64,000 nt of DNA from a virus (lineage: Duplodnaviria; Caudoviricetes), in the IMG/VR virus record IMGVR_UViG_3300023218_000062. The stretch is one strand, 5' to 3'. The notes under the pieces are model-generated. The model saw only the letters and a program-made list of their open reading frames with translations, made no database searches and had not been told where the DNA came from. Positions 4,528 to 52,559 of the stretch are shown piece after piece. The position numbers and the translations under genes are program-made. Within the stretch, counting starts at the first letter, position 1. The number at the start of each line of letters is the position of its first letter.

Positions 4528-4537
4528 AATATAAGCG

Positions 4538-9377: not shown

Positions 9378-10418
9378 TTATTCGTTTGCATGTTCTATAA
9401 TATTTTTAAAATTTTTTGTTATTTCTTCCCATGTTAGAAAGGAAATTGAATTAAAACACTTCTTTCGATTCATAGCTATACATTTTAGAACTGCAGCGGT
9501 TAAATTATCATCAATATGCCCGTTTATACCGGGCATTATAATATCCTTTGGTCCCATAACTCTATACCCTGCAACTGGAGTTCCACAAGCCATAGCTTCT
9601 AACATAACAATACCAAATGTATCAGTCTTAGATGGAAACACAAAAATATCCGCATTTTGATATTCTTGTTCTAACTCGTTACCCCTTTTACATCCCATAA
9701 AATTTATTGATTGGTCACTAGCATATTTCTTTTTCAATTTTTTAAGTGCTGGTCCATCACCTACAACGATCTTTTCAAGTTTAGGAACGAAAAATTTCTG
9801 ATCAATATCTAAAAAATCCTCTATATTCTTTTCTTCAGATACCCTTCCTACATACAGAAGTCTTATTTTATTATTATCTCTTATCTTATTTGAAAACTTA
9901 AAAGAAGAGGTATCAACCCCTCTACCCCATGCCCTTATAGTATGGTTTATATCATGGTTGCGTAGCTTCTTTCCCATGGAGTTTGTGGTCACCAATACAC
10001 AATTAGCATTATAGTGTATTTTTCTAAGATATTTGTATACTAATTCTTCTGATATAAATGGAAATTTTTGATTTATATATTCTGGAAAGTTTGTATGATA
10101 TGATGTTGTGTAAGAAACATTATTATTTTTACAAACCCTAGAAGCTTGAAATCCTATAGGCCCTTCAGTTGCTATATGTATATAAACAGGATCAATATTT
10201 TTGATAATTTCAAATATTTTTTGTTTTGGCGGAAACGCCAAACGTATTTGGCGGTAAAATGGTAGGGGTGCAGTAAATTGGAAATCATTTGGTGATATTA
10301 TTGTGACAGTATAATCCATACATTCTAGATGCTTTTTAGTTTGCTTTAATGTAGTGACCACGCCGTTGACTTGTGGCTCATACGCATCAGTAAATATTAA
10401 TAATTTTTTCCTACTCAT
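9378..10418 (-). CDS. GT4 glycosyltransferase, Agt-like glycolipid synthase
   Basis: TDAYEPQVNGVV, HIATEGPIG, YHTNFPEY, RGVD, YVGRVSEEKN, FVFPSKTDTFGIVMLEAMACG. Confidence 0.9.
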   Translation of the reverse strand: MSRKKLLIFTDAYEPQVNGVVTTLKQTKKHLECMDYTVTIISPNDFQFTAPLPFYRQIRLAFPPKQKIFEIIKNIDPVYIHIATEGPIGFQASRVCKNNNVSYTTSYHTNFPEYINQKFPFISEELVYKYLRKIHYNANCVLVTTNSMGKKLRNHDINHTIRAWGRGVDTSSFKFSNKIRDNNKIRLLYVGRVSEEKNIEDFLDIDQKFFVPKLEKIVVGDGPALKKLKKKYASDQSINFMGCKRGNELEQEYQNADIFVFPSKTDTFGIVMLEAMACGTPVAGYRVMGPKDIIMPGINGHIDDNLTAAVLKCIAMNRKKCFNSISFLTWEEITKNFKNIIEHANE

Positions 10419-10471
10419 AATCTATGTATTTTTATATAACATATATTAAATTTTTGTTATATTCATAATAT

Positions 10472-10493
10472 TTGACTACTCCCCCCACTAAAG
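10472..10493 (-). mobile_element. isolated IS200/IS605 right-end-like relic
   Basis: CTTTAGTGGGGGGAGTAGTCAA, matching the end of the 7836 relic. Confidence 0.45.
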
Positions 10494-10501
10494 TGTTTTG
10501 A

Positions 10502-10732
10502 TCAAAAATTGTCAATATATTCATCGTCCTCGGGTTTAAGATTTTTGATTGTTTCTATTACATCTTCTGGTAACTCATATTGCCATGCAATAGTTGCAAC
10601 CTTGTCAAATTCAGCTGGTGTAGAAATATTTGATTTCACCCAATTGATCAGCCATTCTTTTTGGGAACGAGTCATCCCCCCTCCGAGATTAAAGGATAAC
10701 GCCATATTTCTAAATAAGGTAAAATTCGCCAT
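10502..10732 (-). CDS. hypothetical protein
   Basis: ORF track, co-oriented in the operon. Confidence 0.55.
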   Translation of the reverse strand: MANFTLFRNMALSFNLGGGMTRSQKEWLINWVKSNISTPAEFDKVATIAWQYELPEDVIETIKNLKPEDDEYIDNF

Positions 10733-10768
10733 GATATTAAGTTTAAAGTTTAAACGGCATACTTTTAT

Positions 10769-11350
10769 TTATATAATTTCTAAGATGTTCTTCCATCCAT
10801 CGGCTTCTATTATGTGTTTTTCAGGTTCTTCTTCTTGTATGAATGATGTATATATTTTTATTGGATGTATGCCAAATTCATAACATTTATTCAAAAAACT
10901 ATGTCTATCATCTATAAGGTAATCCAATTTTATCAAATATTTTTCTTTTGTCACGATATAACCAAAGTTTCCTTTTCCAAACAGCCTAGCCAAATTATTA
11001 AATTTTGATCTACCCCCGTTTCCTTTATTATGCGTTACAAAAACTATATTGTAAGTTTTCATTAGCGTTTTAATAGACTCTACCGCATTTTCGACCGGCG
11101 GTATAGTATCATATACACCTTCCTGTCTCCAAAAATCCATAGGATGTACATTAGAGTTTTTCATTGGCGGAAAATGACTAGAAAGATTGTACCTAACTTT
11201 GTTTCCGGCATCGATATAATCCTGAATATTATAGGGCAAATCATTGTTTTCTGACATATTTTTAAGCCAATGCCACCAATTTATATCAGACCTTAACGTA
11301 GTTAAATCTACGTCAACTCCTATGGTTTTTCTGTCACTTAAAATATTCAT
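10769..11350 (-). CDS. 5'(3')-deoxyribonucleotidase (NT5C, HAD family)
   Basis: IGVDVDLT HAD motif I, FVT, KEK, LIDD. Confidence 0.85.
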   Translation of the reverse strand: MNILSDRKTIGVDVDLTTLRSDINWWHWLKNMSENNDLPYNIQDYIDAGNKVRYNLSSHFPPMKNSNVHPMDFWRQEGVYDTIPPVENAVESIKTLMKTYNIVFVTHNKGNGGRSKFNNLARLFGKGNFGYIVTKEKYLIKLDYLIDDRHSFLNKCYEFGIHPIKIYTSFIQEEEPEKHIIEADGWKNILEII

Positions 11351-11900
11351 CTATTACCCCTTTTACGGCTATATAATGATCTTCGATTGTAGTGTCATTA
11401 TCTCTATCAACCCTTCTTGTTATTTCTGGAAAGGCGGTAATCCAATCTCGACTGTCGTTATCAAAACTACAATTCTTTCTACCCCATTGTAATATAAGTA
11501 AAGATGTTGGTCCGAATGCCTCATATAATGGTTTTATCTCTTCTATAAACCCACCATCCGGTAAAATAAACTTATCATGATTGGAGAGCCTTGTTATATC
11601 TGTTCTTACACATTCACCAAAATAAGTTTTACCGTGGACAGGTTTGACCCATTCTTCACCTATCTTTATAAGATAATTTCGCTGAGATAATCCGCCTAGT
11701 TTATCCCATGGCAAATTTTTATCCACTGCATATCTTTCATCCCATTCTTCCTTGGGTATTTTTGATATTACTAATGCTATATTGATAAGGGTAAATTTAA
11801 AGGACATCATCGTATATCCATTTCGGTTAATGAACTCTTCCGCAATAGTATCCTTTCCACTTTGAGGGGGGCAATTAAGTACTACTATTTTTCTATTCAT
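11334..11900 (-). CDS. deoxynucleoside monophosphate kinase
   Basis: LNCPPQSGKDT P-loop, RNYLIKIGEEW, DGGFIEE. Confidence 0.8.
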   Translation of the reverse strand: MNRKIVVLNCPPQSGKDTIAEEFINRNGYTMMSFKFTLINIALVISKIPKEEWDERYAVDKNLPWDKLGGLSQRNYLIKIGEEWVKPVHGKTYFGECVRTDITRLSNHDKFILPDGGFIEEIKPLYEAFGPTSLLILQWGRKNCSFDNDSRDWITAFPEITRRVDRDNDTTIEDHYIAVKGVIDEYFK

Positions 11901-12027
11901 ACATCATCTTAAAACGTGCCGTATATCTTACAACCTAGATAGCTCTATGTCAAAGTATTTCAAGTACTTCATTAAATCACACTTTTTTGGCTTATATAAA
12001 TAAAATCGCGTATACATTGGAGAAAAA

Positions 12028-12741
12028 ATGAGTATAATACGACGTTCACTGGGGCTCTGTAAAAAAATAAATGCATCAACGTGTATAGAACAGGCAAGAA
12101 CGCTTAATACAAACCCATGGGAAGCTTACGCCACTGTAACAATATTTGATAGAAAAAAAACCACAGGTTTATTTAAGGATGGAGTATTAATAAATCAAAT
12201 AGATTTTAAGAAATTTACATCTAAATTAAATCATTTGAAGCAAATTAAGGATTTAGGGGGTGTGCCTCGTTATTATAGGGATCTTATCAGAAAACCGGGG
12301 TTACCGGAAGGATTTCAAGCTAGGGTAATTTTAATAAATGACAGGAATTATATTGATAATATTAATATACACAATAATGTTTTGTATACTATTAATAAAA
12401 AGATTATCACCATACCCTGTCCATATATAGATGAAAATAATGCAATAATTCTAGATTTTTTCACTGTATTTAATTCATTAAAGCTTAATAAGGATGATAT
12501 AAAATGCTATAATGCAAGAATAAAATTCGAAGATGAGAAAGAAGATGAAATAGAGATGGCAGTGGGAAGAAAAAAACAAAAAGATGGAAGCACTGGGGCT
12601 CGTATTATTAAAATGTCAGGAAAATATTCTTCTGAGTTCGGTGGCATACAAAATAAAATTAAGGCCGAGAATTCTAATAGTTCTTCACATATAACTCACG
12701 GTCTTAATAGTTCTTCACATATAGTTAACATTCTATTATAA
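12028..12741 (+). CDS. hypothetical protein
   Basis: 237-aa ORF with GGAG SD. Confidence 0.65.
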   Translation: MSIIRRSLGLCKKINASTCIEQARTLNTNPWEAYATVTIFDRKKTTGLFKDGVLINQIDFKKFTSKLNHLKQIKDLGGVPRYYRDLIRKPGLPEGFQARVILINDRNYIDNINIHNNVLYTINKKIITIPCPYIDENNAIILDFFTVFNSLKLNKDDIKCYNARIKFEDEKEDEIEMAVGRKKQKDGSTGARIIKMSGKYSSEFGGIQNKIKAENSNSSSHITHGLNSSSHIVNILL

Positions 12742-12771
12742 TATAGTTATTATAAAGAATATGGAAAACTT

Positions 12772-13401
12772 ATGACTTGTATAGTAGCATATAAAGATTT
12801 ATATGGGAAGATTTATATGGGTGGAGACGATATTGCCGCGTATCCTGATTCAGAGAGTTATGCAAAAAGATCATACGCACATTCAAAGATTTTTACTAAA
12901 ACGTTAAAAAATGATGTCTCAATTAAACACCCTGATTCTAATCCTAGACCCTTATTAATTGGATACACTACATCATTTAGAATGGGACAAATTCTAGAAT
13001 ATCATTTTGATGTCCCTAAATTAAATCCAGAGACAATAAGCAATAATATGGAATATATGGTTAAATCATTTGTTCCAGCCTTATATGAGTTATTTGACGA
13101 TAATTTATATATAAGAAAATCTGATGCTTCTGAAATTTCAGGCGGAGAGTTCATTGTGGCGTTCGAAAATAATATTTTTACTATATCATATGATTTCTCT
13201 GTCATGGAATTTAAGGGGCCCTTTGCATGTGTTGGTTGTGGTCAGTCATACGCTCTTGGTGCATTATATGTTGCATCTGAACATATGTCAACTAAGTCTA
13301 TTAACGTTTCAAATGGAGAGAATATAGTTAGGGCTGCTGTAAAAGCTGCCGCAAAATTTAGTGGATTTGTGGGGGATAATATTACTATACTATCTACCTA
13401 A
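12772..13401 (+). CDS. HslV/proteasome-like Ntn-hydrolase
   Basis: N-terminal MTCIVA (Thr nucleophile), GGD, KIF, VGCGQSYALGAL. Confidence 0.8.
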   Translation: MTCIVAYKDLYGKIYMGGDDIAAYPDSESYAKRSYAHSKIFTKTLKNDVSIKHPDSNPRPLLIGYTTSFRMGQILEYHFDVPKLNPETISNNMEYMVKSFVPALYELFDDNLYIRKSDASEISGGEFIVAFENNIFTISYDFSVMEFKGPFACVGCGQSYALGALYVASEHMSTKSINVSNGENIVRAAVKAAAKFSGFVGDNITILST

Positions 13402-13487
13402 ACAAAGTTGACATATTATATTTAAGCATATAAGATACTCCGAATAGATCAATAGGTGATCTATAATTAAATTATACAATTAAATTA

Positions 13488-13847
13488 ATGAAGTTAAACC
13501 ATATGAGAAAATTTAATACTAATCAGATATGTGATATACGTCACACCGTAAACATTGAAAATACTAGCCCCACAGCGGTCGCCAAGAAATATAAATCCTC
13601 ACCATCCACCGTTCGTAGAGTAGCATCTGGAGATAGTTATTCAGATATTCCTATGCCAAAGGCGATTCCGGGGTATTCCAATTATATTGCATATCCTAAT
13701 AACAAAATTTGGTCTATTAACCGAAATAAGTTTTTAACGCCTACAGTTAAAAAAGAAGACTACAAGACCAAGTATTTCAATCTTCGCTCTGGTAACGGAG
13801 TTAGACGATCAATACGCTCAAATGAGGTCTCTTCACAATTGTTTTAA
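13488..13847 (+). CDS. HTH plus NUMOD4-like DNA-binding protein (homing-endonuclease-derived)
   Basis: VAKKYKSSPSTVRRV HTH; KAIPGYSNYIAYPNNKIWS NUMOD4-like; no HNH motif. Confidence 0.6.
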   Translation: MKLNHMRKFNTNQICDIRHTVNIENTSPTAVAKKYKSSPSTVRRVASGDSYSDIPMPKAIPGYSNYIAYPNNKIWSINRNKFLTPTVKKEDYKTKYFNLRSGNGVRRSIRSNEVSSQLF

Positions 13848-13866
13848 TGCGTGAAAAGAGGGAAAT

Positions 13867-13891
13867 AAAAAGGGGGCAATGCCCCCTTTTT
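13867..13891. terminator. bidirectional rho-independent terminator
   Basis: AAAAAGGGGGC-AAT-GCCCCCTTTTT between convergent genes. Confidence 0.85.
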
Positions 13892-13911
13892 ATTCTCATT
13901 GTATTTTTAAA

Positions 13912-14316
13912 TTATATATTTTTTCTTTTTGACTCCAGACTTTCCGCGATAGTTACAACTGAATGAAAAGATTCTGTATTTTTTTCAGACAGCTTCTTAG
14001 TAGATTTCAAGTGTTTATGAGCCTTTTTTATAAGATCATTAGCAACTTTTAAATTACCCTTTTTCTTATTGGTTTCAGCTTCCTTAATTAACGCTTTCGC
14101 TTCTTTTAAGAATTTTGCTGCCTTATTATATCCCTTCTCGATATCAGATGTGTCAATGTTGTGATCTTCGTTTATCACAGAAAATTGACTCTCAAAAAGT
14201 TGTTCCTTTTCTTCTTTTATATCTTTAAGTATAGTGTTGAACTGCTTTTTGGTTGCATTGATATTATCATTAACCTTGGCTTCAATTAATAGACTGTAAA
14301 CATTAATATTTTTCAT
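13912..14316 (-). CDS. coiled-coil hypothetical protein, possibly prohead core
   Basis: helical K/E-rich; leader ends SLLIE. Confidence 0.6.
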   Translation of the reverse strand: MKNINVYSLLIEAKVNDNINATKKQFNTILKDIKEEKEQLFESQFSVINEDHNIDTSDIEKGYNKAAKFLKEAKALIKEAETNKKKGNLKVANDLIKKAHKHLKSTKKLSEKNTESFHSVVTIAESLESKRKNI

Positions 14317-14340
14317 AGTATTTTTTGCTCTTTTGTGTGT

Positions 14341-14895
14341 TTATTTATCGAAGTTAAATTCTTTATCTTCTTTATCAGATTTGGGATCTGAGTCTCTAGC
14401 ATCTGAAAATACACTATAGTCAAAATCTGGGTCTTCATCATCTTCCTCATAGTCGCTATCGGTACTCAAATCAAAGTCAAGATCATCTAAATCGGGAAGT
14501 TCTTCATTACCTTCTTCATCTTCACCACTTTTAAAATCCATACCACGATTTTGAAGTATCTGCTTGAGTTTGTGCGTTATATCAGTTCTTTTTTCTCCCG
14601 CAAAGATATCATCTTCTTCACTATCATAATCCGCGCCGCTGTCAGAGTCTTCAGGGTCTTCACTATCATAATTCATTCCAAAATCATTGTCTCCATCGAA
14701 GGACATTTCACCATTCTCCGATGATTCTATGCCCTCGATATCATCTTGCCCATTAACATAGGCCCCTTTCATACTCTTACCATGACGGGCAGGGCCAAAT
14801 TCTTTTTCAAAATCTAGTCCAGTATTCTCTGTATCTTCTTCATTATCCGTCATTCTGATATCAAATTCATTTATGATATTATAAAGTTCGCTCAT
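14341..14895 (-). CDS. highly acidic protein, possibly scaffold/core
   Basis: D/E-rich tracts; leader MSELYNIINE; tandem TATAAATA upstream at ~14910-14935. Confidence 0.65.
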   Translation of the reverse strand: MSELYNIINEFDIRMTDNEEDTENTGLDFEKEFGPARHGKSMKGAYVNGQDDIEGIESSENGEMSFDGDNDFGMNYDSEDPEDSDSGADYDSEEDDIFAGEKRTDITHKLKQILQNRGMDFKSGEDEEGNEELPDLDDLDFDLSTDSDYEEDDEDPDFDYSVFSDARDSDPKSDKEDKEFNFDK

Positions 14896-15005
14896 TTTTA
14901 ACTTACCTTTGCAGTTTATTTATACTTTATTTATAAGATACATGTATAATTGTTGACAATGTGAGCTTAAGCCAGTAATATTCCACTATTAATAGAGGAA
15001 TAAAA

Positions 15006-16082
15006 ATGAGAATAGAGGAAGATATGAAACTAGATTTTTCAGATGTTTTAATACGTCCTAAAAGAAGCAATTTGGCATCTAGAAAAGATGTTACGTTACA
15101 GAGAGATATAGTATGTAAATATTCTGGTAAAACTCTTTCGGGTGTGCCCATAATGAATTCTAATATGGGAACATCAGGTACTTTCAAGGTAAGCTCGGAA
15201 TTAACTAAGCAGAAGTGTTTTTCTACCGCTCATAAATTCTATAATTTGGAAAGCTGGGAAAATAAATTGAGTGCTGAATATGATGCCGAGAATTCAAGTT
15301 TTTTTGATAAATTCTTTTTTCCTATGGGACTAAATGATGCAGATCTTAGCGATCTTGAACATTTAATACTAGAAAAGGATTACCCTTTACAGAATATAAT
15401 GATTGATGTTGCCAACGGTTATTCTGAAAAGTTTGTTAATTTTATTTCTAGAGTTAGAAATATGTTTCCGGATCTTATTATAGCAGCGGGAAACGTAGCA
15501 ACTCCTGATATGACAGAAGCCTTAATTTTATCAGGAGCAGATATAATAAAAGTAAACATAGGAGCAGGATCGTGCTGCACCACTCGTTTAAAGGCTGGTG
15601 TAGGATATCCTCAACTGAGTGCAGTAATAGAATGTGCAGACGCTGCACATGGGCTAGGAGGTCATATTATATCTGATGGGGGTTGTGTTGATGTTGCGGA
15701 TTTTTGCAAGGCGTTTGGAGCGGGGGCAGATATTGTAATGTCTGGATCTTTTTTCGCCGCAACAGATGAATCAGATTGTGATGAGTATATAGATCCTGAT
15801 ACAGGTAAAATATATAAAGTAAATTATGGAATGTCATCAAAAACTGCACAAGATAAATATGGTGACGGAATGAAAGACTATAGAAGTAGCGAAGGTCGTA
15901 CTGTAATTCTCCCCCCGTCTGGACCAACTAAAGACGTAATAAACGATATATTAGGTGGTATACGTAGCTGTTGCACATATGTAGGGGCAAATAAGATAAA
16001 GGAACTACCCAAACGCACAACTTTTATTAAAGTAAATAACACGCACAACACGATAAATGAATCAAATACAATAGGAAACTAA
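15006..16082 (+). CDS. guaC: GMP reductase
   Basis: KLDFSDVLIRPKRS, IDVANGYS, AGNVAT, KVNIGAGSCCTTR, GVGYPQLSA, YRSSEG. Confidence 0.95.
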   Translation: MRIEEDMKLDFSDVLIRPKRSNLASRKDVTLQRDIVCKYSGKTLSGVPIMNSNMGTSGTFKVSSELTKQKCFSTAHKFYNLESWENKLSAEYDAENSSFFDKFFFPMGLNDADLSDLEHLILEKDYPLQNIMIDVANGYSEKFVNFISRVRNMFPDLIIAAGNVATPDMTEALILSGADIIKVNIGAGSCCTTRLKAGVGYPQLSAVIECADAAHGLGGHIISDGGCVDVADFCKAFGAGADIVMSGSFFAATDESDCDEYIDPDTGKIYKVNYGMSSKTAQDKYGDGMKDYRSSEGRTVILPPSGPTKDVINDILGGIRSCCTYVGANKIKELPKRTTFIKVNNTHNTINESNTIGN

Positions 16083-16096
16083 AGGAGATTTATATT

Positions 16097-16423
16097 ATGA
16101 AAGATGAAGTAGTATTATTAAAATTAAGTGCCAGTTTTGCAGAAATTATCTGTAAAGTTAGTGATAGTGTCGCAGAAAAACTTATAGAAAAATCACCTAT
16201 TGATGCCTTTACTGTTATTTCACCATTTTTGATTCAAATGCAAAGAGATGAAAATGGAGATTTGGCCACCGGTTTACATGCTTTAAGCCTGATGATGAAA
16301 GGAGATCCGAAAAATGTAAAATTAAGATTAAATGACAGAGATATATTATTTGCGGCAAGACCCACAGATGATATAGAAAAACAATATAGACAAATGGTTA
16401 GTGGGATACAATTAGTGAAATAA
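16097..16423 (+). CDS. hypothetical phage protein
   Basis: 108-aa ORF with AGGAG SD. Confidence 0.65.
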   Translation: MKDEVVLLKLSASFAEIICKVSDSVAEKLIEKSPIDAFTVISPFLIQMQRDENGDLATGLHALSLMMKGDPKNVKLRLNDRDILFAARPTDDIEKQYRQMVSGIQLVK

Positions 16424-16465
16424 TCATGACATGTATATGTTTATAAATATTATAGTAAACTGAAG

Positions 16466-16657
16466 ATGTGGGCAATCATGGATTTACAATTAATTATAAC
16501 AATATTATTAATAATATCGGCAATATATGTTGTTGGGGGTATTATATCTTGTAGTATCGTATTATATCAAACCAAGGATTTTGAAGAAGCACTACAAGCA
16601 GGGATAATGTGGCCAATAGGATTATATTGGGTAATTTTAACTATATTACGACATTAA
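16466..16657 (+). CDS. small membrane protein
   Basis: two hydrophobic segments. Confidence 0.55.
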   Translation: MWAIMDLQLIITILLIISAIYVVGGIISCSIVLYQTKDFEEALQAGIMWPIGLYWVILTILRH

Positions 16658-16666
16658 GTTACAAAC

Positions 16667-16999
16667 TCAATATCCGATTAATGCACGTCTTCTTGCAATA
16701 TAATACTCTTGTTCATAGATGTCATGCATAATGGCTTTTTCATCCCATTCTTTACTGTGTTTATCCCATACGATATAAGAACCATCTTCGCCATGGACAA
16801 GAAAGAAATTGACCCCGCCATAGTTTGCAGGGTTATTTTTATCACATGGAATCATCTCATTCATTTGTTTTTTCGCTATTGCGTCATAAATTTTCAGTTT
16901 TATTGCAGAAGCTACTTTTGATTCTTTTTCTGTGATCGTTTTAAATGTAATCATAGTAATATAAATACTTTTCAGATAAAAATTATTTATATATTCCAT
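16667..16999 (-). CDS. hypothetical protein
   Basis: ORF track. Confidence 0.55.
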   Translation of the reverse strand: MEYINNFYLKSIYITMITFKTITEKESKVASAIKLKIYDAIAKKQMNEMIPCDKNNPANYGGVNFFLVHGEDGSYIVWDKHSKEWDEKAIMHDIYEQEYYIARRRALIGY

Positions 17000-17005
17000 A
17001 TTAAC

Positions 17006-17635
17006 ATGAATCTATTTAAAGAATTTAACCTTATGGAGGCGGAGAAGGCCGCTAATAAGGAAATCAAATATTCTATAGACATTATAAACCAAATGTATAA
17101 TGAATGGAAAAAGATCAAACGGCGCGTGAATGCCGTAGACATAGTTGTCACCACGGCCAACAAGCTATCTGTAATATCTCCCGCTGCTATAGATAGAATA
17201 CATGAAGCTTCAAGGGTAAAATTAACCTCTTTATTGATGCGCTGTATGGAACTGGGCTATTGGAAACCTTTAATCGAAAAGGCTCCCATATACAAAAAAC
17301 TATATCCATTAATTGCAAAACTCCACTCATATGATGCTAGAACAGGGACGGGGGGAACCCTAAAAGAGGTTATTCTCACCCGTTTGAGTGCCGCTCAGAG
17401 TTATCAAAACAAATTAGCAGACGGGACCATAGTATTCGTAGCATATGAACCTAAAATCACACCATCATATCAGAAATATTTATTTGGATCTGAATCTGAT
17501 AGAATTGTTGCTACTTTCAAAATGCAGACTTTAGAACTTCCACAAGATTATGCTTCATTATTAGAAACTTTAAGAATAAATCATGAAAAATCTATTAAAA
17601 AATTTAAAAATTCAATCAATAAAGGAAAGAAATAA
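17006..17635 (+). CDS. hypothetical protein, putative head-packaged protein
   Basis: leader MNLFKEFNLME. Confidence 0.65.
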   Translation: MNLFKEFNLMEAEKAANKEIKYSIDIINQMYNEWKKIKRRVNAVDIVVTTANKLSVISPAAIDRIHEASRVKLTSLLMRCMELGYWKPLIEKAPIYKKLYPLIAKLHSYDARTGTGGTLKEVILTRLSAAQSYQNKLADGTIVFVAYEPKITPSYQKYLFGSESDRIVATFKMQTLELPQDYASLLETLRINHEKSIKKFKNSINKGKK

Positions 17636-17669
17636 ATATAATAAATAAAATAACAATAAAGGAACAATC

Positions 17670-18371
17670 ATGAGTCAACAATGGTTTGGCAGAGTATATA
17701 AAGAAGATAAAAGAGATTTAGATTTCAAAATTGATGAAATTTTAACAACTATAGACATGCCTGACATATCAGAAAAGTTTTGGTGGGCTGATGGATGGAC
17801 TGGAAATCAAGGTGCTACATCCCACTGCGTGTCTTATAGTTGGAGTCATTGGTTTGAAGATGGTCCCGTAATTCAAGATGCTATAATAGGTAGGCAAAAG
17901 CCTGTATATGATACTACTATATTATATAATACATTCAGAAAATATGACGGCATAGAGGGTAATTACGATGGTACAACTGTTAGAGCAGGTGCTAAAACCT
18001 TTCAAAAATTGGGTATTATTAATGAATATAGATGGGCTCAAACTATAGAAGATGTCATCAACACTCTACTATACTTGGGTCCCATGGTTGTAGGTACTAA
18101 ATGGACAGAAGGAATGAATAATCCGAGTTCTGCACAACATATAATTCGGCCTTCTGGACGAGCATCTGGTGGCCATGCATATTTACTCAATGGTATTAAC
18201 ATGGAGAAGGAATTATTCAGGATAAAAAATTCTTGGGGTTCCACTTGGGGATATCGTGGCGCGGCATACATACGTTTTTCGGATTTTGAAAAACTATTAA
18301 AAGATCGCGGTGAGGCGTGTGTAGCATTTGAAAATAAAATAAATTCAATCGACGACCTCTCTGAAATATGA
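17670..18371 (+). CDS. papain-like cysteine protease (C1 family)
   Basis: NQGATSHCVSYS (Gln/Cys), GGHAY (His), IKNSWG (Asn). Confidence 0.9.
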   Translation: MSQQWFGRVYKEDKRDLDFKIDEILTTIDMPDISEKFWWADGWTGNQGATSHCVSYSWSHWFEDGPVIQDAIIGRQKPVYDTTILYNTFRKYDGIEGNYDGTTVRAGAKTFQKLGIINEYRWAQTIEDVINTLLYLGPMVVGTKWTEGMNNPSSAQHIIRPSGRASGGHAYLLNGINMEKELFRIKNSWGSTWGYRGAAYIRFSDFEKLLKDRGEACVAFENKINSIDDLSEI

Positions 18372-18401
18372 AAAAAGGGGGGCTAAGCCCCCCCCTTTTT
18401 T
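18371..18401 (+). terminator. rho-independent terminator
   Basis: AAAAAAGGGGGGC-TAA-GCCCCCCCC-TTTTTT. Confidence 0.8.
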
Positions 18402-18421
18402 AAGTCATCGTATCATCTATC

Positions 18422-18560
18422 TTGACAATTTCGAGAGGATTCTTGTTTCACAGTCCTGTGCATTGCTCCATACAGGAGATTCAGTCTTGCTAATTCCGTG
18501 TGCCCCACGGTTAAAATGTTTTTAGCTGCATTCACATCTCTGACATGATACGCTGAATTC
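18422..18560 (-). mobile_element. third tnpB 3'-end relic
   Basis: YHVRDVNAAKNILTVGHTELA followed by ...AAGAATCC...TGTCAA. Confidence 0.75.
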
Positions 18561-18666
18561 GTTCCACTTTCAATTTTTGTTTTTCAAAATTATCACTTTA
18601 TTTTTCTTTCTTTGCCTGAATAAATACGTATTTTATAAATAGTTGAAATGAATATATCCAACGAAT

Positions 18667-18879
18667 ATGAAAGTACAACAGCTTATGGAAATTGCAGAGA
18701 AATATATAAACGCATACCAATATTACAAACAGATGTACAATACTAATAAAAATATGACTAGAGATTTCATTATAACGACAGTTGCTAGGATGTTTTTAAT
18801 TCCAAATATCAAAGACTTTCACACTTATGTGTTGAAAAGGGATAAAAATGAAAAACATGGAATGCTTTATCCTAAATAA
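18667..18879 (+). CDS. small hypothetical protein with head-targeting-like leader
   Basis: MKVQQLME; TATAAATA at ~18635. Confidence 0.6.
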   Translation: MKVQQLMEIAEKYINAYQYYKQMYNTNKNMTRDFIITTVARMFLIPNIKDFHTYVLKRDKNEKHGMLYPK

Positions 18880-18916
18880 TTAATGGGAGTTACACTAAAA
18901 AGACAGCGTGTGAGGT

Positions 18917-19498
18917 TTGGTTTCGATGATTAGAATATTACAAATAACAATTGTTAGTTTATTTCTATTTGCGCCGCGAGCGCTTGCAGAAACTACAATA
19001 GCCGGGGTTTTTATAGTGACCAATGGGCTAGGTTATGATTCTCCCGGATATGGTATACAAATAGGACATAATGATAGATATGGAAACTGGGGTTGGGATG
19101 TCGAAGGTATGGCAGTAAATCATGGGAAAATCGGATCGAATAAAGGTTTTCGCTTACAGACTATTGGAATGGGAAGAAGATTTTTTGGAAACTATTTTAT
19201 AGAAGCAGGCATTGAATGGGGTGGCTATAAATCTGAGTTTCCAGATCGGCCAGCATGGGTAAAGTATGGGCGAGCGCCGGGAGTTGGAATCGGGGCATTA
19301 CAAGATGGTGTTGAATGGAAAATCCGCTATTTTGCGAAAGACACTACACCAAACAACACATCTGTGGCGGCTGCTGCAGTTGATATTCCGTTTGGTGAAT
19401 GGTCTATTGGAGCCACTTTAGAGCGATGGAAATTTGATCAAAATGATGATCGTTTATCAGGTATGCAAGTAGCATTGACATATGGAAGAAAATTTTAA
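18917..19498 (+). CDS. exported outer-membrane beta-barrel-like protein
   Basis: signal peptide ending ALA, alternating hydrophobic/Gly strands, C-terminal YGRKF. Confidence 0.7.
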   Translation: MVSMIRILQITIVSLFLFAPRALAETTIAGVFIVTNGLGYDSPGYGIQIGHNDRYGNWGWDVEGMAVNHGKIGSNKGFRLQTIGMGRRFFGNYFIEAGIEWGGYKSEFPDRPAWVKYGRAPGVGIGALQDGVEWKIRYFAKDTTPNNTSVAAAAVDIPFGEWSIGATLERWKFDQNDDRLSGMQVALTYGRKF

Positions 19499-20262
19499 TT
19501 ATAATATGCCATACTAATAATGCCATTTTCATCTTCATATAGATAAGAACAAAATTCTACCCAACAACCACAATTCAAATACCTGACATTATTAATAATT
19601 TTATCTTCTGCATTGTGAATATGGCCACATATAACACCATTTGCATCATGCTCTTTCGCACATTCTACAACTAATTTTTCGTAATTATTAATATATTGTA
19701 TGGAACGTTTAACACTATGTTTTATCCATTGTGCCAAACTCCATTCTTTCATTTTAAAAAATCTTCTTAATTTATTTTGGAAATTATTTGCCCATATAAT
19801 CAATTTATAACTATAATTCCCTAAAGCATATATAAATGGATACATTCTAATAAGACCATCAAATTCATCACCATGCAGAATAAAAAATTCATCACCATTT
19901 TTTGTCGTATATGTGTCATTGTACTTTATGGTTATTCCATTAAAATTAACACCATCAGGTGATTCTTCTAAAAACTCTTCAGAAAGGAAATGATCATGAT
20001 TCCCTCTTATGTATGTAATTTTCACACCTTTATCTGCCATTCTAAATAATTTTTTTATTATCTTTCTATGTCTAGACCAAAATACTTTGTGGCTAAAATT
20101 TGTCATATCAATAATATCCCCTACAAGAAATAGCTGTTGGATTATATATTTCCCATTCTTGTCTTCTAAGGACTTTAAGAAATCATATAGTTTATTATAT
20201 TGGCAGTTAGGGTTTCCTAGATGTACATCGGATATCCAAATAGTAACGGGTTTTATTTTCAC
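19495..20262 (-). CDS. plcP: PlcP/LpxH-family metallophosphoesterase (phospholipase C-like)
   Basis: WISDVHLG, LVGDIID, GNHD, LHGDEFD, WSLAQWIK, CGHIH, NCGCWVE. Confidence 0.8.
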   Translation of the reverse strand: MKIKPVTIWISDVHLGNPNCQYNKLYDFLKSLEDKNGKYIIQQLFLVGDIIDMTNFSHKVFWSRHRKIIKKLFRMADKGVKITYIRGNHDHFLSEEFLEESPDGVNFNGITIKYNDTYTTKNGDEFFILHGDEFDGLIRMYPFIYALGNYSYKLIIWANNFQNKLRRFFKMKEWSLAQWIKHSVKRSIQYINNYEKLVVECAKEHDANGVICGHIHNAEDKIINNVRYLNCGCWVEFCSYLYEDENGIISMAYYN

Positions 20263-20290: not shown

Positions 20291-20366
20291 TGGTGCCAAT
20301 AGAGGGATTTGAACCCCCGACCTTTTCCATACCAAGAAATTGCTCTTCCGGCTGAGCTATATTGGC
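20291..20366 (-). tRNA. tRNA-Thr(GGT)
   Basis: cloverleaf GCCAATA...TT-GGT-AT...GGTTCAAATCC...TATTGGC-ACCA. Confidence 0.9.
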
Positions 20367-20950
20367 TTATTTATACTATTTATCATCCGGGCCCAATTGC
20401 GCAGGCGGTAATCTTCATACTTTGGCTCAAGCCGATGTATCACTACACTATACATATAAACTTCTGGATTGTCAATCCACTTTTGGCCTTCTTTACAGCT
20501 TGAATTCCATTCATGAGCAAATCTCCATATCTCAAGAGATTTCTTTTTAAAATCATCGGGCATTTTACTATCAATTTTTTGTGGAATAGATTCATTAAAT
20601 ATCCCAGTGTTAATGGCTTCTTTCTTGCCAATAGTTTTTAATTTTTTGGTATTTATTGCCACACATTCAAAAGCATATCGAGCATAAGCCTTTTTCATTT
20701 TTGAGGCTTCAATCCATTTTGGATCTCTAGCTTTATAAAAATCTGTGTAATATTGTATTGTCTTTGTGTTATCATTTTGAACTATTCTATATTTTTCAGG
20801 AACCCAATAGCTTACATCTTTTTCCAGCGAGGGTTTCTTTTTCTTTCCTACAGGTTCTAATATAATTCTAGGTGTGTTCCCAAATCTATATCGGATAAAT
20901 TTAAAGAATCTATATGGGACTTCTACCGTAAGTTTATTATTTGAATCCAT
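20357..20950 (-). CDS. hypothetical protein
   Basis: 197-aa ORF; 3' end abuts tRNA-Thr. Confidence 0.6.
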   Translation of the reverse strand: MDSNNKLTVEVPYRFFKFIRYRFGNTPRIILEPVGKKKKPSLEKDVSYWVPEKYRIVQNDNTKTIQYYTDFYKARDPKWIEASKMKKAYARYAFECVAINTKKLKTIGKKEAINTGIFNESIPQKIDSKMPDDFKKKSLEIWRFAHEWNSSCKEGQKWIDNPEVYMYSVVIHRLEPKYEDYRLRNWARMINSINKPI

Positions 20951-21274: not shown

Positions 21275-21352
21275 AATTTAATAATATTATAATAGTTTCA
21301 GTGTTTATTGTCAATTGGTAAATACTATTTATATTATAATATTTTTGCATAA

Positions 21353-22953: not shown

Positions 22954-25029
22954 TTATACAATATATTCGCTACTAATTTCCGTTATATTCATCGGTGTAA
23001 TATCACCTTCGAACAGTCCAAATACGATATCTGCATGATTTGGATCATCTACTACGGTAGCATTACGACCTATTGCATGCATCATGAAAAGATCGTATAA
23101 GCTTACTTTATTATTGATAGAAAGCATTGCTTCAGCCACATCGCGTACCGATGCTGCATTACTATTAACATTGTTAGGCAATCTGCCAAATGCATCTGCG
23201 TGTGACATGTCTGTCCATATAATTTCTCTTGTTGTAAGATCAAAAATTACAGGCATAGCACTTGTGCTGTCAAAGTTCATGTCTAGCTTACATTCAACTG
23301 TCTTGGGATCGTAAATTTCGTTGCTCTCCGGAGCAGATCTAGCCATCCAACCGATGAAGCAAGTGTCATGCTCTGCGAAGGTTTTCCCACGGAATACCAT
23401 CACATTCATCGCAACATATCTTGCACCAGCATTAAGAGCCTTTTCAATATCGATATCGATAAATTCACTAGCGCCGTGTGGCGCTCTAGTTATATCACCT
23501 GAATGATATAATCCAGACCTCGGTACTCTGATATTGCAATAGAAAATCTTATCCATGACATGGAAGTTTTCGTTAAATAGTGTAGCACTCAAATCAATAT
23601 CTAGTCCAACCCAATACAAGAATAAACGTACAGTGTTTGTTTCTTCATCTCCAAAAGGAAAACGAGTTCCTCTCGCCGCCGAAAATGTACCATCACTTGC
23701 ACTTCTCTGTTGAAAAGGGATAGGGCATCTTTGTAATGCTGGATCAATATACACCTTACCCAAATCTTCCAGATTAGAAAACCTGTTGGTTAGTATCTTA
23801 GATATTCCAGTTACGAGACTATTAACGACTTTTTCCGGAAGAGCACTCTGTCCACTGATCAATTTCGCCTTTTGAATATTTCCTTTGGGAAACACTACTC
23901 TCTTCTCGGTACTGTTATTTCTAGTTGCAAAATGACCTTTCAACTGTAGAAGAACTTTGGTTGACACATTATCAGCCACAGATATAAACTTGTTTGCAAC
24001 AATTATCTGATTTCGTTCGGTACCTGCCATTCTTAACAAATGATCCAATCTACGCGCAAAGTCGCCGGGACGAGTCACTAATAGCTTAGTAGCCTTAACT
24101 GGATGGCCAGCCCCCAAATGACGCTCAACTTTAGTGTTAAAGGTTTCAACACTTTCATTTTCACGTAATGGTTTGATGGCATCATATACTTTCTTGGAGT
24201 AGTCTCCAACATGCAAAGAGTGTGCCAACTTAACCCACTTTCCGCTATGTCGTACAAGATCTTCTCTGTTAATGACAGATTCTAATCCTTTAACAAGGAT
24301 TCGTCTTTCTGGTCTTTTGAAATTCCTGAATTTAGTGTTGTCTGCTAATGAAACATCACCACCGGACATGTGTGTGGCAATACGCAACACATCGTTGGGG
24401 TTCTTAACCAGTTCATTGATTGGAATTCCATTTTCTACCATGTATGCACCAATAATGCACAGATTTTCCTTGAACGGAATTGTTTCCGGAAATACGAGAT
24501 TTCCGTAATGTTGCAAGAACCATTCAATGATTTCCTTATCTATACTAGATACAGAATCGTTTGATGCCAATATCTTTGTAAATATTGATGCAAACTCGTC
24601 TTCTGTCGCAATTCCCAAAGTTCTAAACTTCACATTCTCAAATGCGAATTCTCTAGGAAGTTTTTCATAATCAGGCTTCCAGTAACCGTAACTCCAATAA
24701 TGCACGATAGCGTTCAAAAACAATTCCAAATCACTGGCTTCGATAACCTGACGAGGAAAATTCGGATACATTGGTTTATGAACTACATTATCGCCTTTCA
24801 ACTCTTTCAATGTTTTAACTAATACTGCTGAAAGGTCTCCTAGCATACGATCTGGAAGCTCTGAGATCACTTTTAAGAGATCTTCATCCATTATATAACC
24901 TAGGTCCATGATATTGGCTTGAAGGGTCATGGCCTTTGCTGTAATCTGTCCCGTTGGACTCTCACTGCGCAGGTGCGCAGGTATAACTACTTTTTCTAGC
25001 TTCTTGATAGCTATTTCTGTCTTATTCAT
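22954..25029 (-). CDS. TROVE/Ro60-like helical protein fused to a C-terminal TerD domain
   Basis: 691 aa; helical N-terminal ~450 aa (YPNFP, RPGDFARRLDHLLR); TerD motifs DIDLSA, HSGDIT, GASEFIDI. Confidence 0.7.
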   Translation of the reverse strand: MNKTEIAIKKLEKVVIPAHLRSESPTGQITAKAMTLQANIMDLGYIMDEDLLKVISELPDRMLGDLSAVLVKTLKELKGDNVVHKPMYPNFPRQVIEASDLELFLNAIVHYWSYGYWKPDYEKLPREFAFENVKFRTLGIATEDEFASIFTKILASNDSVSSIDKEIIEWFLQHYGNLVFPETIPFKENLCIIGAYMVENGIPINELVKNPNDVLRIATHMSGGDVSLADNTKFRNFKRPERRILVKGLESVINREDLVRHSGKWVKLAHSLHVGDYSKKVYDAIKPLRENESVETFNTKVERHLGAGHPVKATKLLVTRPGDFARRLDHLLRMAGTERNQIIVANKFISVADNVSTKVLLQLKGHFATRNNSTEKRVVFPKGNIQKAKLISGQSALPEKVVNSLVTGISKILTNRFSNLEDLGKVYIDPALQRCPIPFQQRSASDGTFSAARGTRFPFGDEETNTVRLFLYWVGLDIDLSATLFNENFHVMDKIFYCNIRVPRSGLYHSGDITRAPHGASEFIDIDIEKALNAGARYVAMNVMVFRGKTFAEHDTCFIGWMARSAPESNEIYDPKTVECKLDMNFDSTSAMPVIFDLTTREIIWTDMSHADAFGRLPNNVNSNAASVRDVAEAMLSINNKVSLYDLFMMHAIGRNATVVDDPNHADIVFGLFEGDITPMNITEISSEYIV

Positions 25030-41200: not shown

Positions 41201-41230
41201 CCTACAATGTTTAACTTGTTTTGTCAAGTT
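41201..41230 (-). promoter_or_regulatory. sigma70 promoter (extended -10)
   Basis: TTGACA-17 nt (ending TG)-TAGGAT. Confidence 0.7.
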
Positions 41231-45038: not shown

Positions 45039-45098
45039 TATAATATTCCTTTAATAATATTGACTCATTCTAATCTCATATTAGTTGAATGTCAACTA

Positions 45099-52451: not shown

Positions 52452-52559
52452 AATAAATTTCCTTTTATTTTTAAAATATATATTGATATTATATATGGAT
52501 TTAAAGAACAGCACAAGAGCAATAATATAAATATCATACATATAAAATAACATATCCCC

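What the first reader, a model, noticed from the sequence alone, without database searches (positions are those of the whole stretch)
9378..20262. Phage-encoded PlcP + Agt-like pair: possible membrane-lipid remodelling to free phosphate
19495..20262 carries the motif set of the PlcP phospholipase C family and 9378..10418 that of the Agt-type GT4 glycolipid synthase. In marine proteobacteria, PlcP releases diacylglycerol from phospholipids under P starvation and Agt converts it to glycolipids. Both are here, unlinked, in a phage rich in nucleotide-synthesis genes. Inference: the phage mines host phospholipid phosphate for DNA synthesis, or alters the membrane for superinfection exclusion.
Basis: partly seen in the sequence, partly recalled or inferred. 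Interest (0 to 1): 0.78.

Follow-up and report, generated by a model that had tools for sequence, protein, structure and literature searches.

The report
Phage PlcP–Agt membrane-lipid remodelling genes
An uncultured giant phage carries its own copies of the two bacterial enzymes (PlcP and Agt) that strip the phosphate head from membrane phospholipids and rebuild them as sugar lipids, so it can probably convert its host's membrane into a phosphorus source during infection; databases label the first gene wrongly as the lipid A gene lpxH.

Summary
Both genes are real and sit at the stated coordinates. 19495-20262(-) is a PlcP-family ("LpxH2") metallophosphoesterase and not LpxH. It scores 50 bits against a cut-off of 134, it has GNHD where every LpxH has GNRD, and a 99%-supported long branch separates it from true LpxH. 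9378-10418(-) belongs to the Agt/GTcp clade of GT4 diacylglycerol glycosyltransferases. It is 44% identical to the Pelagibacter Agt, it has the GRVxxEKN and FPSxTDTFG motifs, and 13 of 14 experimentally critical GTcp residues are conserved.

In 58 of the 80 best bacterial loci, the homologues of the two proteins lie together, mostly as a plcP→agt operon. In at least six related phage contigs the two genes are adjacent and overlapping. The 9-kb separation in this window is therefore a derived rearrangement of a cassette that was acquired as a unit.

The purpose is still inference. Phosphorus salvage is the most likely reading and membrane or surface change is the rival. This window has no Pho box, pstS or phoH; plcP sits behind sigma70-type promoters.

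I found no paper describing phage PlcP-Agt; virus surveys list the gene as "lpxH". This scan has already noted the same cassette in at least 13 other phage genomes, so this is another instance, with a split layout.

The parts
19495..20262 (-). plcP-like gene. It encodes a PlcP/LpxH2-family metallophosphoesterase (a predicted phospholipase C) of 255 aa, with a GTG start behind an AAGGAG site.
   Evidence: Pfam Metallophos. The LpxH models score 49.9 and 36.8 bits, far under their cut-offs of 134 and 190. The motif is GNHD, not GNRD. It lies inside the PlcP family and apart from LpxH in the ML tree. It is 39% identical, E 3e-60, to the Pelagibacter PlcP homologue. The AF2 model is an LpxH-like fold with a helical insertion domain.
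9378..10418 (-). agt-like gene. It encodes a GT4 diacylglycerol glycosyltransferase of the Agt/GTcp clade, 346 aa.
   Evidence: GT4 domains. Motifs GRVSEEKN and FPSKTDTFG are present, and H108, D266, R166, R192, K197, T267, F268, G269, E274 and W330 are conserved (against PMC8231724). It is 44% identical, E 2e-87, to the Pelagibacter Agt. The AF2 model has pLDDT 90, and its nearest reviewed structures are MGlcDAG synthases, SQD2 and PimA/B. dN/dS is 0.13 against the L164 copy.
20291..20366 (-). tRNA-Thr(GGU), 28 nt upstream of plcP on the same strand. It is probably co-transcribed with plcP.
   Evidence: ARAGORN; sequence.
21286..21314 (-). A perfect sigma70-type promoter (TTGACA-17-TATAAT). 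It heads the minus-strand run tRNA-Ser, two ORFs, tRNA-Thr, plcP.
   Evidence: Consensus matches with at most one mismatch are enriched in the window: 9 found against 2.0 expected, reached in 0 of 100 shuffles.
20447..20475 (-). A second sigma70-type promoter-like site (11 of 12 positions), about 185 nt upstream of the plcP start.
10502..11953 (-). The minus-strand cassette that now ends in agt. It holds a weak promoter-like site at 11953-11925, then ORFs 11900-11334, 11350-10769 (weak NT5C/HAD-like match) and 10732-10502.
   Evidence: The same flanks surround the 83%-identical agt of contig L164.
15006..16082 (+). GMP reductase (guaC). It is a conserved neighbour of the plcP-agt cassette in related phages and lies between the two genes here.
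   Evidence: NCBIfam NF003470, 451 bits against a cut-off of 397. Homologues lie within a few kb of plcP-agt in L002, L003, L098 and L165.
18667..19498 (+). Two ORFs of unknown function (70 and 193 aa). They occupy the position where agt sits in the relative L003, just past the 3' end of plcP.
   Evidence: Synteny comparison with L003; no Pfam or NCBIfam match.

Best explanation
The phage encodes a working two-enzyme lipid-renovation pathway copied from bacteria.

PlcP (19495-20262) is a Mn-dependent, LpxH-like metallophosphoesterase with a helical lipid-binding insertion domain. It cleaves host glycerophospholipids (PE, PG, PC) into diacylglycerol and a phospho-head group. Agt (9378-10418) then transfers glucose or glucuronate from a UDP-sugar onto that diacylglycerol and makes phosphorus-free glycolipids (MGDG, GADG).

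The net effect in the infected cell would be this: membrane phosphorus is released into the cytoplasm, where it can feed nucleotide synthesis for a genome of more than 300 kb, while the bilayer stays intact because the diacylglycerol is re-capped instead of accumulating.

The pair entered this jumbo-phage lineage as one plcP→agt cassette. In this phage agt has since been moved 9 kb away.

What is shown: family membership, the catalytic residues, the ancestral linkage, purifying selection on agt (plcP synonymous sites are saturated; its catalytic motifs are invariant), and the fact that these are phage genes. What is inferred: the substrates, expression from host-type promoters, and the phosphorus-salvage benefit.
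For: (1) P0002 is not LpxH but its paralogue.
- The NCBIfam LpxH models score 49.9 and 36.8 bits against cut-offs of 134 and 190.
- Five bacterial genomes that carry a P0002 homologue also carry a separate true LpxH at 278-320 bits. Their P0002-like copy scores 33-45 bits.
- In the ML tree, LpxH is split off by a 99%-supported long branch.
- All 5 LpxH have GNRD. All 42 phage and 79 of 80 bacterial PlcP-like proteins have GNH[DE]. PMC5016852 states that this Arg is specific to LpxH and binds the substrate's beta-phosphate.

(2) The bacterial relatives are the plcP-agt operon. In 58 of 80 loci a P0001 homologue (E 1e-43 to 1e-84 in 54) lies within 4 kb, mostly 40-150 nt downstream on the same strand. 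These include Pelagibacteraceae cells.

(3) P0001 carries the published GTcp/Agt signatures and 13 of 14 residues whose mutation abolished activity. It is 44% identical to the Pelagibacter Agt. Its structural neighbours are enzymes that glycosylate DAG or phosphatidylinositol.

(4) In phage relatives the genes are adjacent and overlapping in the order plcP→agt: L001, L002, L003, L004, L098, L165. L165 also carries T4 gp15, a lysozyme, Acb1 and phoH.

(5) Selection. agt has dN/dS 0.13. The catalytic motifs are invariant across 42 phage PlcPs.

(6) Links to phosphate in other phages. Mosig plcP lies beside pstS, and phoH lies 1 kb from the cassette in L165.

(7) The AF2 model of P0002 has a metallophosphoesterase core plus a helical insertion, and its top 25 PDB matches are all LpxH.
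Against: - No enzyme activity, expression data or host is known for this phage.
- The window has no E. coli-type Pho box near either gene. Matches are at chance level: 10 found against 5.5 expected.
- pstS and phoH homologues were not found by tblastn with the Mosig PstS and L165 PhoH as queries.
- plcP sits behind constitutive-looking sigma70-type promoters, so a phosphate-starvation response is not shown here.
- The two genes are no longer co-transcribed.
- PlcP releases phospho-head groups and not free phosphate. A further phosphatase step is assumed.
- Most IMG/VR phage contigs with a PlcP-like gene have no Agt within 10 kb (63 of 66), so the pair is not obligatory.
- I could not obtain the characterised reference proteins (MED193_17359, SMc00171, PA3219, Atu2297). 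Membership rests on operon-linked homologues and published residue lists.
- The phage PlcP clade has an insertion of about 9 residues and lacks the bacterial C-terminal tail. The effect of these differences is unknown.
Confidence: 0.62

Rival explanations
1. The enzymes are the same, but the purpose differs. The phage swaps phospholipid for glycolipid to change membrane or surface properties and not to gain phosphorus. Possible aims are blocking superinfection by other phages, changing susceptibility to grazers or antimicrobial peptides, or tuning membrane stability and lysis timing.
For: - There is no Pho box, pstS or phoH in this window, and the promoters are of the sigma70 type. This fits a programme that runs whatever the phosphate status.
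- The window is unusually rich in other envelope- and glycan-modifying genes: GT2, a TOD1-like protein, HtrL/YibB, a PF11397 GlcNAc-transferase and a sulfotransferase-like protein.
- Paper titles and abstracts listed (not read in full) link membrane lipid composition to phage attachment and to predation (PMC9938194, PMC9457565, PMC9804370).
Against: - PlcP and Agt act on inner-membrane lipids from the cytoplasmic side, which is far from phage receptors.
- In other phages the gene travels with phosphate-acquisition genes: pstS in Mosig and phoH in L165.
- Viral 'lpxH' is reported as commoner in surface oligotrophic waters (PMC10653327).
Confidence: 0.2
2. P0002 is a true LpxH, or another hydrolase of lipid A precursors, and P0001 is an LPS, capsule or DNA/virion glycosyltransferase. 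On this reading the two genes are unrelated parts of the phage's cell-envelope toolkit. This is how databases and virus surveys annotate the gene.
For: - JGI and GenBank call the homologues 'UDP-2,3-diacylglucosamine pyrophosphatase LpxH'.
- Virus surveys list lpxH under LPS biosynthesis.
- The closest solved fold is LpxH.
- The genes are 9 kb apart here, and the window holds several other glycosyltransferases.
Against: - The LpxH models score far below their cut-offs.
- The LpxH-defining Arg is His in P0002.
- LpxH-containing bacteria carry this protein as a second, separate paralogue, and the tree separates the two groups.
- Alphaproteobacteria such as Bradyrhizobium, Methylobacterium and Pelagibacteraceae carry the homologue next to agt.
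- P0001 has the Asp-type FPSxTDTFG signature of the DAG-glycosylating clade.
- The two genes overlap in six related phage contigs.
Confidence: 0.05
3. The genes are passenger DNA picked up from a host. They are drifting and have no role in infection.
For: - The cassette has been broken up in this phage.
- Many related phages have PlcP without Agt, or neither.
Against: - agt has dN/dS 0.13.
- For plcP, synonymous sites are saturated while amino-acid divergence stays at 15-24%.
- All catalytic residues are invariant across 42 diverged phage copies.
- The phage clade is monophyletic and deep, with identities of 41-82%, which indicates long retention in phages.
Confidence: 0.05

Closest known systems
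Bacterial PlcP-Agt lipid-renovation pathway. References: PlcP of Sinorhizobium meliloti SMc00171 and Phaeobacter sp. MED193 MED193_17359; SAR11 HTCC7211 PB7211_983 with Agt/GTcp PB7211_960; Agrobacterium Agt Atu2297 (PMC4796936, PMC8231724).
   Same: - The two protein families are the same.
- The gene order plcP→agt is the same in related phages.
- The same catalytic and substrate-binding residues are present.
- Identity to the Pelagibacter operon proteins is 39% for PlcP and 44% for Agt.
   Different: - The genes are encoded by a jumbo phage.
- They are split 9 kb apart in this genome.
- No Pho box was detected, and the promoters are sigma70-type.
- The phage PlcP clade has an insertion of about 9 residues after helix 1 and lacks the bacterial C-terminal tail.
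- Thr162 of GTcp is Gly here, as it is in most bacterial homologues.
LpxH, the UDP-2,3-diacylglucosamine pyrophosphatase of lipid A synthesis.
   Same: Both have a calcineurin-like metallophosphoesterase core plus a helical insertion domain that holds acyl chains. LpxH is the best structural match, with TM about 0.56.
   Different: - Sequence identity is 16-20%.
- The model scores are far under the cut-offs.
- The motif is GNHD instead of the LpxH-specific GNRD.
- It forms a separate clade.
- The partner gene is agt and not a lipid A gene.
'LpxH' genes of Pelagibacter phage Mosig EXVC030M (Mosig_00120) and Synechococcus phage S-SRM01, and about 60 IMG/VR myophage-sized contigs.
   Same: They are PlcP-family genes carried by phages. 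The Mosig copy lies beside pstS.
   Different: - They are only 31-41% identical to P0002.
- They fall outside the jumbo-phage clade in the tree, which suggests independent acquisitions.
- They have no Agt within 10 kb.
Known phosphate-stress auxiliary genes of marine phages: pstS, phoA and phoH of cyanophages and pelagiphages (from my general knowledge).
   Same: The logic is the same: a phage carries host-derived genes that raise the phosphorus supply for replication.
   Different: Those genes act on external phosphate uptake. This pair would mobilise an internal pool, the membrane phospholipid, and replace it.

Membership tests
PlcP (LpxH2-type phospholipase C) | Calcineurin-like metallophosphoesterase core with all metal-binding motifs intact. 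| tested here: met
   D12xH14, GD49, GN88H89D, H130GD and GH214xH216 are all present. They are invariant across 14 and 16 aligned homologues.
PlcP (LpxH2-type phospholipase C) | Groups with bacterial PlcP homologues (the paralogue that sits next to agt) and apart from LpxH. | tested here: met
   In an ML tree of 129 sequences the LpxH branch has 99% support. The query lies in a 42-member phage clade inside the PlcP group.
PlcP (LpxH2-type phospholipase C) | Published operational criterion: BLASTP E below 1e-40 to a characterised PlcP, MED193_17359 (PMC4796936). | tested here: inconclusive
   I could not obtain the MED193 sequence. As a proxy, P0002 scores E 3e-60 (39% identity) against a Pelagibacter sp. 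protein from a plcP-agt operon, and E about 1e-52 to 1e-60 by tblastn against 80 bacterial loci.
PlcP (LpxH2-type phospholipase C) | Helical insertion (lipid-binding) domain within the catalytic core. | tested here: met
   The AF2 model (pLDDT 83) has helices at residues 136-204 inserted between the core strands. Its top 25 PDB matches are LpxH.
PlcP (LpxH2-type phospholipase C) | Linked to a gene for a phosphorus-free lipid, such as agt or btaAB. | tested here: met
   The genes are adjacent and overlapping in the phage relatives L001-L004, L098 and L165. In this window agt is 9.1 kb away on the same strand.
PlcP (LpxH2-type phospholipase C) | Pho-regulon control (Pho box upstream). | tested here: not met
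   E. coli-type Pho box matches are at chance level and none lies upstream of either gene. The host, and therefore its Pho box consensus, is unknown, so the test is weak.
PlcP (LpxH2-type phospholipase C) | Phospholipase C activity on PE, PG or PC. | not testable with these tools
   This needs an enzyme assay or complementation.
LpxH | Scores above the curated LpxH model cut-off. | tested here: not met
   NF003743 scores 49.9 bits against a cut-off of 134. TIGR01854 scores 36.8 against 190. True LpxH proteins score 278-320 bits.
LpxH | Arg replaces the catalytic His of the GNH[DE] motif, giving GNRD. PMC5016852 describes this as present in LpxH of all species with known sequence. | tested here: not met
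   P0002 has GNHD. All 5 true LpxH examined have GNRD.
Agt/GTcp clade of GT4 (DAG glucosyl/glucuronosyl transferase) | GT-B fold with GT4 N- and C-terminal domains. | tested here: met
   Pfam Glyco_transf_4 plus Glycos_transf_1. The AF2 model has pLDDT 90 and TM 0.80-0.88 to MGlcDAG synthases, SQD2 and PimA/B.
Agt/GTcp clade of GT4 (DAG glucosyl/glucuronosyl transferase) | UDP-sugar motifs GRVAxEKN and FPSxTDTFG, with the clade-specific catalytic Asp in place of the Glu found in other GT4s, and the His104-Asp256 dyad. | tested here: met
   P0001 has GRVSEEKN at 191-198 and FPSKTDTFG at 261-269. H108 and D266 are invariant in the alignment (residue list from PMC8231724).
Agt/GTcp clade of GT4 (DAG glucosyl/glucuronosyl transferase) | Residues shown by mutagenesis to be needed for donor binding (G16, G82, G85, R190, K195, T257, F258, G259, E264) and for DAG binding (H104, T162, R163, W320). 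| tested here: met
   All are conserved: G19, G86, G89, R192, K197, T267, F268, G269, E274, H108, R166 and W330. The one exception is T162, which is G165 here. It is also Gly in most bacterial operon-linked homologues.
Agt/GTcp clade of GT4 (DAG glucosyl/glucuronosyl transferase) | High identity within the clade (46-58% in PMC8231724) against less than 25% to other GT4 enzymes. | tested here: met
   P0001 is 44% identical to the Pelagibacter Agt (E 2e-87) and 38-45% to 54 operon-linked bacterial Agt homologues. Identity to structurally matched reviewed (Swiss-Prot) GT4 enzymes is 14-24%.
Agt/GTcp clade of GT4 (DAG glucosyl/glucuronosyl transferase) | [quoted passage not shown] | not testable with these tools
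   This needs heterologous expression with lipidomics, or an in vitro assay.

The most novel reading that the evidence does not exclude
The phage runs phospholipid-to-glycolipid conversion as a constitutive, early, host-RNA-polymerase-driven part of infection, uncoupled from the host Pho regulon. Viral infection, and not only phosphate starvation, would then generate the glycolipid-to-phospholipid signal that oceanographers and limnologists use as a marker of phosphorus stress. Membrane phosphorus would be a routine feedstock for replicating giant phage genomes.
Probability: 0.2. Interest if true: 0.8.

Novelty: new member of a known kind. Interest (0 to 1): 0.6.

Why it matters
Where phages obtain phosphorus for DNA synthesis in phosphate-poor waters is a long-standing question. 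The known viral answers (pstS, phoA, phoH) all concern uptake from outside the cell. A phage-borne PlcP-Agt pair points to a second, internal source, the host's own membrane. It makes that idea directly testable by expression, complementation and lipidomics.

It also corrects a systematic annotation error. Viral 'lpxH' is counted as an LPS-biosynthesis auxiliary gene in virome surveys (PMC10653327, PMC9611531).

Finally, it warns that glycolipid enrichment in natural samples could partly reflect viral infection. I found no paper describing this. The scan has met the same cassette in at least 13 other phage genomes, so it is a recurring and probably ecologically relevant trait rather than a one-off.

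Tried and rejected
- No whole genome is held for this window, so I could not search the rest of the phage for pstS, phoH or a second copy.
- Megablast of 24 kb of the window against GenBank phages found no match.
- A first IMG/VR scan with the single protein found nothing. The profile scan worked.
- An exact look-up of P0005, from the 270-kb contig, failed.
- A sequence search of the PDB gave only marginal LpxH hits, E 0.006.
- A Pho box search (CTGTCAT-N4-CTGTCAT, up to 3 mismatches) was at chance level, with no site upstream of either gene.
- tblastn with PhoH, PstS, a second metallophosphoesterase, DUF4326, NT5C and Acb1 from related phages found nothing in the window.
- Sequencing-run look-up: four DNA metagenome runs from one study hold the stretch. 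No RNA holder is listed, and the habitat names are coded.
- The GT4 tree could not be rooted properly. One intended outgroup fell inside the tree and the other sat on a very long branch. I therefore use it only to show that the query groups with phage-linked Agt homologues.
- I could not retrieve the characterised reference proteins (MED193_17359, SMc00171, PA3219, Atu2297, WP_008545403). A cluster look-up of the Pelagibacter proteins returned only 'Candidatus Pelagibacter sp.' names.
- I ran no complex prediction, because I do not claim that the two proteins bind each other.
- Literature searches for phage PlcP returned nothing relevant.

Full report
**What is in the sequence**

9378-10418 encodes a 346-aa protein, P0001. 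19495-20262 encodes a 255-aa protein, P0002. It starts at a GTG five bases after an AAGGAG ribosome-binding site and lies 28 nt downstream of tRNA-Thr.

The window is phage DNA.
- GC content is about 32%.
- Eleven tRNA genes are scattered through it.
- It has PHROG matches, including a virion structural protein and an exonuclease.
- By tblastn its best relatives are XacN1-type jumbo phages.
- It encodes a class II-like ribonucleotide reductase, thymidylate synthase and GMP reductase.

Earlier notes of this scan on the same genome describe a T4-like jumbo phage whose terminase lies outside this window. I did not re-test that.

**P0002 is PlcP-type, not LpxH**

Pfam sees only the general metallophosphoesterase domain. 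The NCBIfam LpxH equivalog models score 49.9 and 36.8 bits, against cut-offs of 134 and 190.

About 7,900 homologues were recovered. A group at 41-82% identity comes from metagenome contigs, some of 180-290 kb. A second tier at 36-40% identity (E about 1e-50) is bacterial and annotated as 'LpxH'. It includes Alphaproteobacteria such as Hoeflea.

In five gamma- and betaproteobacterial genomes that carry such a homologue, a separate true LpxH scores 278-320 bits. The P0002-like copy in those genomes scores 33-45 bits, the same range as P0002 itself.

I built an ML tree from 42 phage-clade proteins, 80 bacterial homologues, the Mosig and S-SRM01 phage proteins and 5 true LpxH. LpxH sits on a long branch with 99% support. 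P0002 sits in a monophyletic phage clade (99%) within the bacterial PlcP-like group.

At residue level, every true LpxH has GNRD. P0002, all 42 phage proteins and 79 of 80 bacterial homologues have GNH[DE]. Okada et al. (PMC5016852) state that this His-to-Arg change occurs only in LpxH, in all species of known sequence, and that the Arg binds the substrate's beta-phosphate. They also note that the P. aeruginosa paralogue 'LpxH2' must have a different substrate.

The AF2 model (pLDDT 83) has the metallophosphoesterase core plus a helical insertion at residues 136-204. Its 25 best PDB matches are LpxH, at TM about 0.56 and 16-20% identity. The fold is that of a lipid-handling enzyme, but the family is the paralogue.

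**P0001 is Agt-type**

P0001 has the two GT4 domains. Its best NCBIfam matches are lipid glycosyltransferases, all far below their cut-offs.

Wei et al. (PMC8231724) define the Agt/GTcp clade as follows:
- 46-58% identity within the clade and less than 25% identity to other GT4 enzymes;
- the motifs GRVAxEKN and FPSxTDTFG;
- a His104-Asp256 dyad, with Asp replacing the usual GT4 Glu;
- a list of residues whose mutation abolishes activity.

P0001 has GRVSEEKN and FPSKTDTFG. All listed residues are conserved except T162, which is Gly here and in most bacterial homologues. P0001 is 44% identical (E 2e-87) to the Agt of a Pelagibacter plcP-agt operon.

The AF2 model (pLDDT 90) is closest to alpha-monoglucosyl-DAG synthases, SQD2 and the phosphatidylinositol mannosyltransferases. 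All of these glycosylate membrane lipids.

**The two genes belong together**

I took the 80 bacterial loci with the best P0002 homologues. Of these, 58 carry a P0001 homologue within 4 kb. In most it lies 40-150 nt downstream on the same strand, with full-length matches at E 1e-64 to 1e-84. This is the 'type 2' plcP-agt arrangement of Sebastián et al. (PMC4796936).

In phage-clade contigs the two genes are adjacent and overlap by a few bases, in the order plcP→agt. This holds for L001, L002, L003, L004, L098 and L165. L165 also carries T4 gp15, a phage lysozyme, Acb1, DHFR, GMP reductase and phoH, so the clade is phage-borne.

Gene-by-gene comparison with L003 shows a shared block: GMP reductase and the four ORFs corresponding to window 16097-18371. 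In L003 this block abuts agt-plcP. In the window the same block abuts two unknown ORFs (18667-19498) and then plcP. agt now ends a different minus-strand cassette 9 kb away. The 83%-identical agt of L164 shares those new flanks.

The unlinked state is therefore derived. Both genes stay under constraint. agt has dN/dS 0.13. For plcP, synonymous sites are saturated while pN is 0.15-0.24.

**Distribution in phages**

IMG/VR holds 66 viral contigs with a PlcP-like gene. The three closest are 315-350 kb. Most of the rest have 28-31% GC, are up to about 190 kb (many are shorter fragments), and carry PlcP without an Agt within 10 kb.

Among isolates, Pelagibacter phage Mosig and Synechococcus phage S-SRM01 carry homologues annotated as LpxH. 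In Mosig the gene lies back-to-back with pstS. In the tree these two fall outside the jumbo-phage clade, which suggests separate acquisitions.

**Regulation**

No E. coli-type Pho box stands upstream of either gene, and matches across the window are at chance level. No pstS or phoH was found in the window.

Sigma70-consensus promoters are enriched: 9 found against 2.0 expected, reached in 0 of 100 shuffles. A perfect one at 21314-21286 and a near-perfect one at 20475-20447 lie upstream of plcP on its strand. I infer transcription by host RNA polymerase, probably early in infection. This is not shown.

**Mechanism and purpose**

By homology, PlcP would cleave PE, PG or PC into diacylglycerol plus a phospho-head group. 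Agt would convert the diacylglycerol into MGDG or GADG.

The most likely benefit is release of membrane phosphorus for nucleotide synthesis in a phage with a very large genome. Re-capping the diacylglycerol would keep the membrane intact until lysis. I put this at about 0.45-0.5 within an overall 0.62 that the pair works as a lipid-renovation pathway.

The main rival is that the aim is a change in membrane or surface properties, at about 0.2. Points in its favour are the lack of Pho signals and the many other glycan-modifying genes in the window. The LpxH/LPS reading (0.05) and a passenger-gene reading (0.05) are largely excluded.

**Novelty**

Searches of the held literature found no description of phage-encoded PlcP or PlcP-Agt. 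Virome surveys list the viral gene as 'lpxH' under LPS biosynthesis.

This scan has already reported the same cassette in at least 13 other phage genomes, several of them with pstS and Pho boxes. The present window adds a member with a split layout and no detectable Pho control. The proteins are members of known families doing their known job in a new carrier, so I class it as a new member of a known kind, with solid interest for marine and freshwater virology.

Noticed in passing
window 30067-30693, 32172-32891, 41224-41841, 54974-56602, 59237-60667: The window holds an unusual number of glycan-modifying genes: a GT2, a TOD1/MUCI70-like glycosyltransferase, a sulfotransferase-like protein, an HtrL/YibB-family protein and a PF11397 'GlcNAc' glycosyltransferase (E 8e-75). 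In my recollection (not checked here), PF11397 occurs mostly in eukaryotes and giant viruses.
   Followed up: no
window 15006-16082; L002 3207-5459: A phage GMP reductase (guaC, above the NCBIfam cut-off) is a conserved neighbour of plcP-agt in related phages. In contig L002 the homologous gene is interrupted by an intein (Hom_end_hint domain).
   Followed up: partly
L096 (Pelagibacter phage Mosig, MT647606) 2888-4723: In the cultured pelagimyophage Mosig, the PlcP-family gene annotated 'UDP-2,3-diacylglucosamine hydrolase' lies back-to-back with the phage pstS. The genome announcement does not comment on it.
   Followed up: partly
L101-L162 (IMG/VR contigs): About 60 viral contigs, mostly 28-31% GC and up to about 190 kb (many shorter fragments), carry a PlcP-family gene without an Agt within 10 kb. 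A phage that supplies only the phospholipase step would depend on a host Agt or would accumulate diacylglycerol.
   Followed up: partly
window 52560-54977 and 42100-43053: Two proteins carry DUF285 (BspA-like) repeats. The N-terminal 400 aa of the larger one are 46-48% identical to proteins of the jumbo phages XacN1, Xoo-sp13 and Stenotrophomonas CM1/RAS14.
   Followed up: no
window 22954-25029: A 691-aa protein of unknown function (phrog_33734, E 3e-83) is conserved in very different phages, including Rhodococcus, Xanthomonas, Rhodobacter and Lactobacillus phages. Other notes of this scan treat it as Ro60-like.
   Followed up: no
window 852-1436 and 5116-5766: There is a second, small metallophosphoesterase (Metallophos_2, 194 aa) and a Zeta-toxin/AAA_33-type kinase-like protein. 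Their roles are unknown.
   Followed up: no
window, nine sites including 13263-13291, 21286-21314, 26629-26657, 33897-33925, 45067-45095: TTGACA-17-TATAAT promoter consensus matches are enriched (9 found against 2.0 expected). Eight of the nine lie on the minus strand, which suggests many host-RNA-polymerase-driven cassettes.
   Followed up: partly
P0002 residues about 33-41 (window about 20140-20166): All phage-clade PlcPs share an insertion of about 9 residues after the first helix (E-D-x-N/D-G-x-Y...). They also lack the 20-40-residue C-terminal tail of the bacterial PlcPs.
   Followed up: no
window 51489-52553: The thymidylate synthase has about 73 extra N-terminal residues before the Pfam domain begins.
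   Followed up: no
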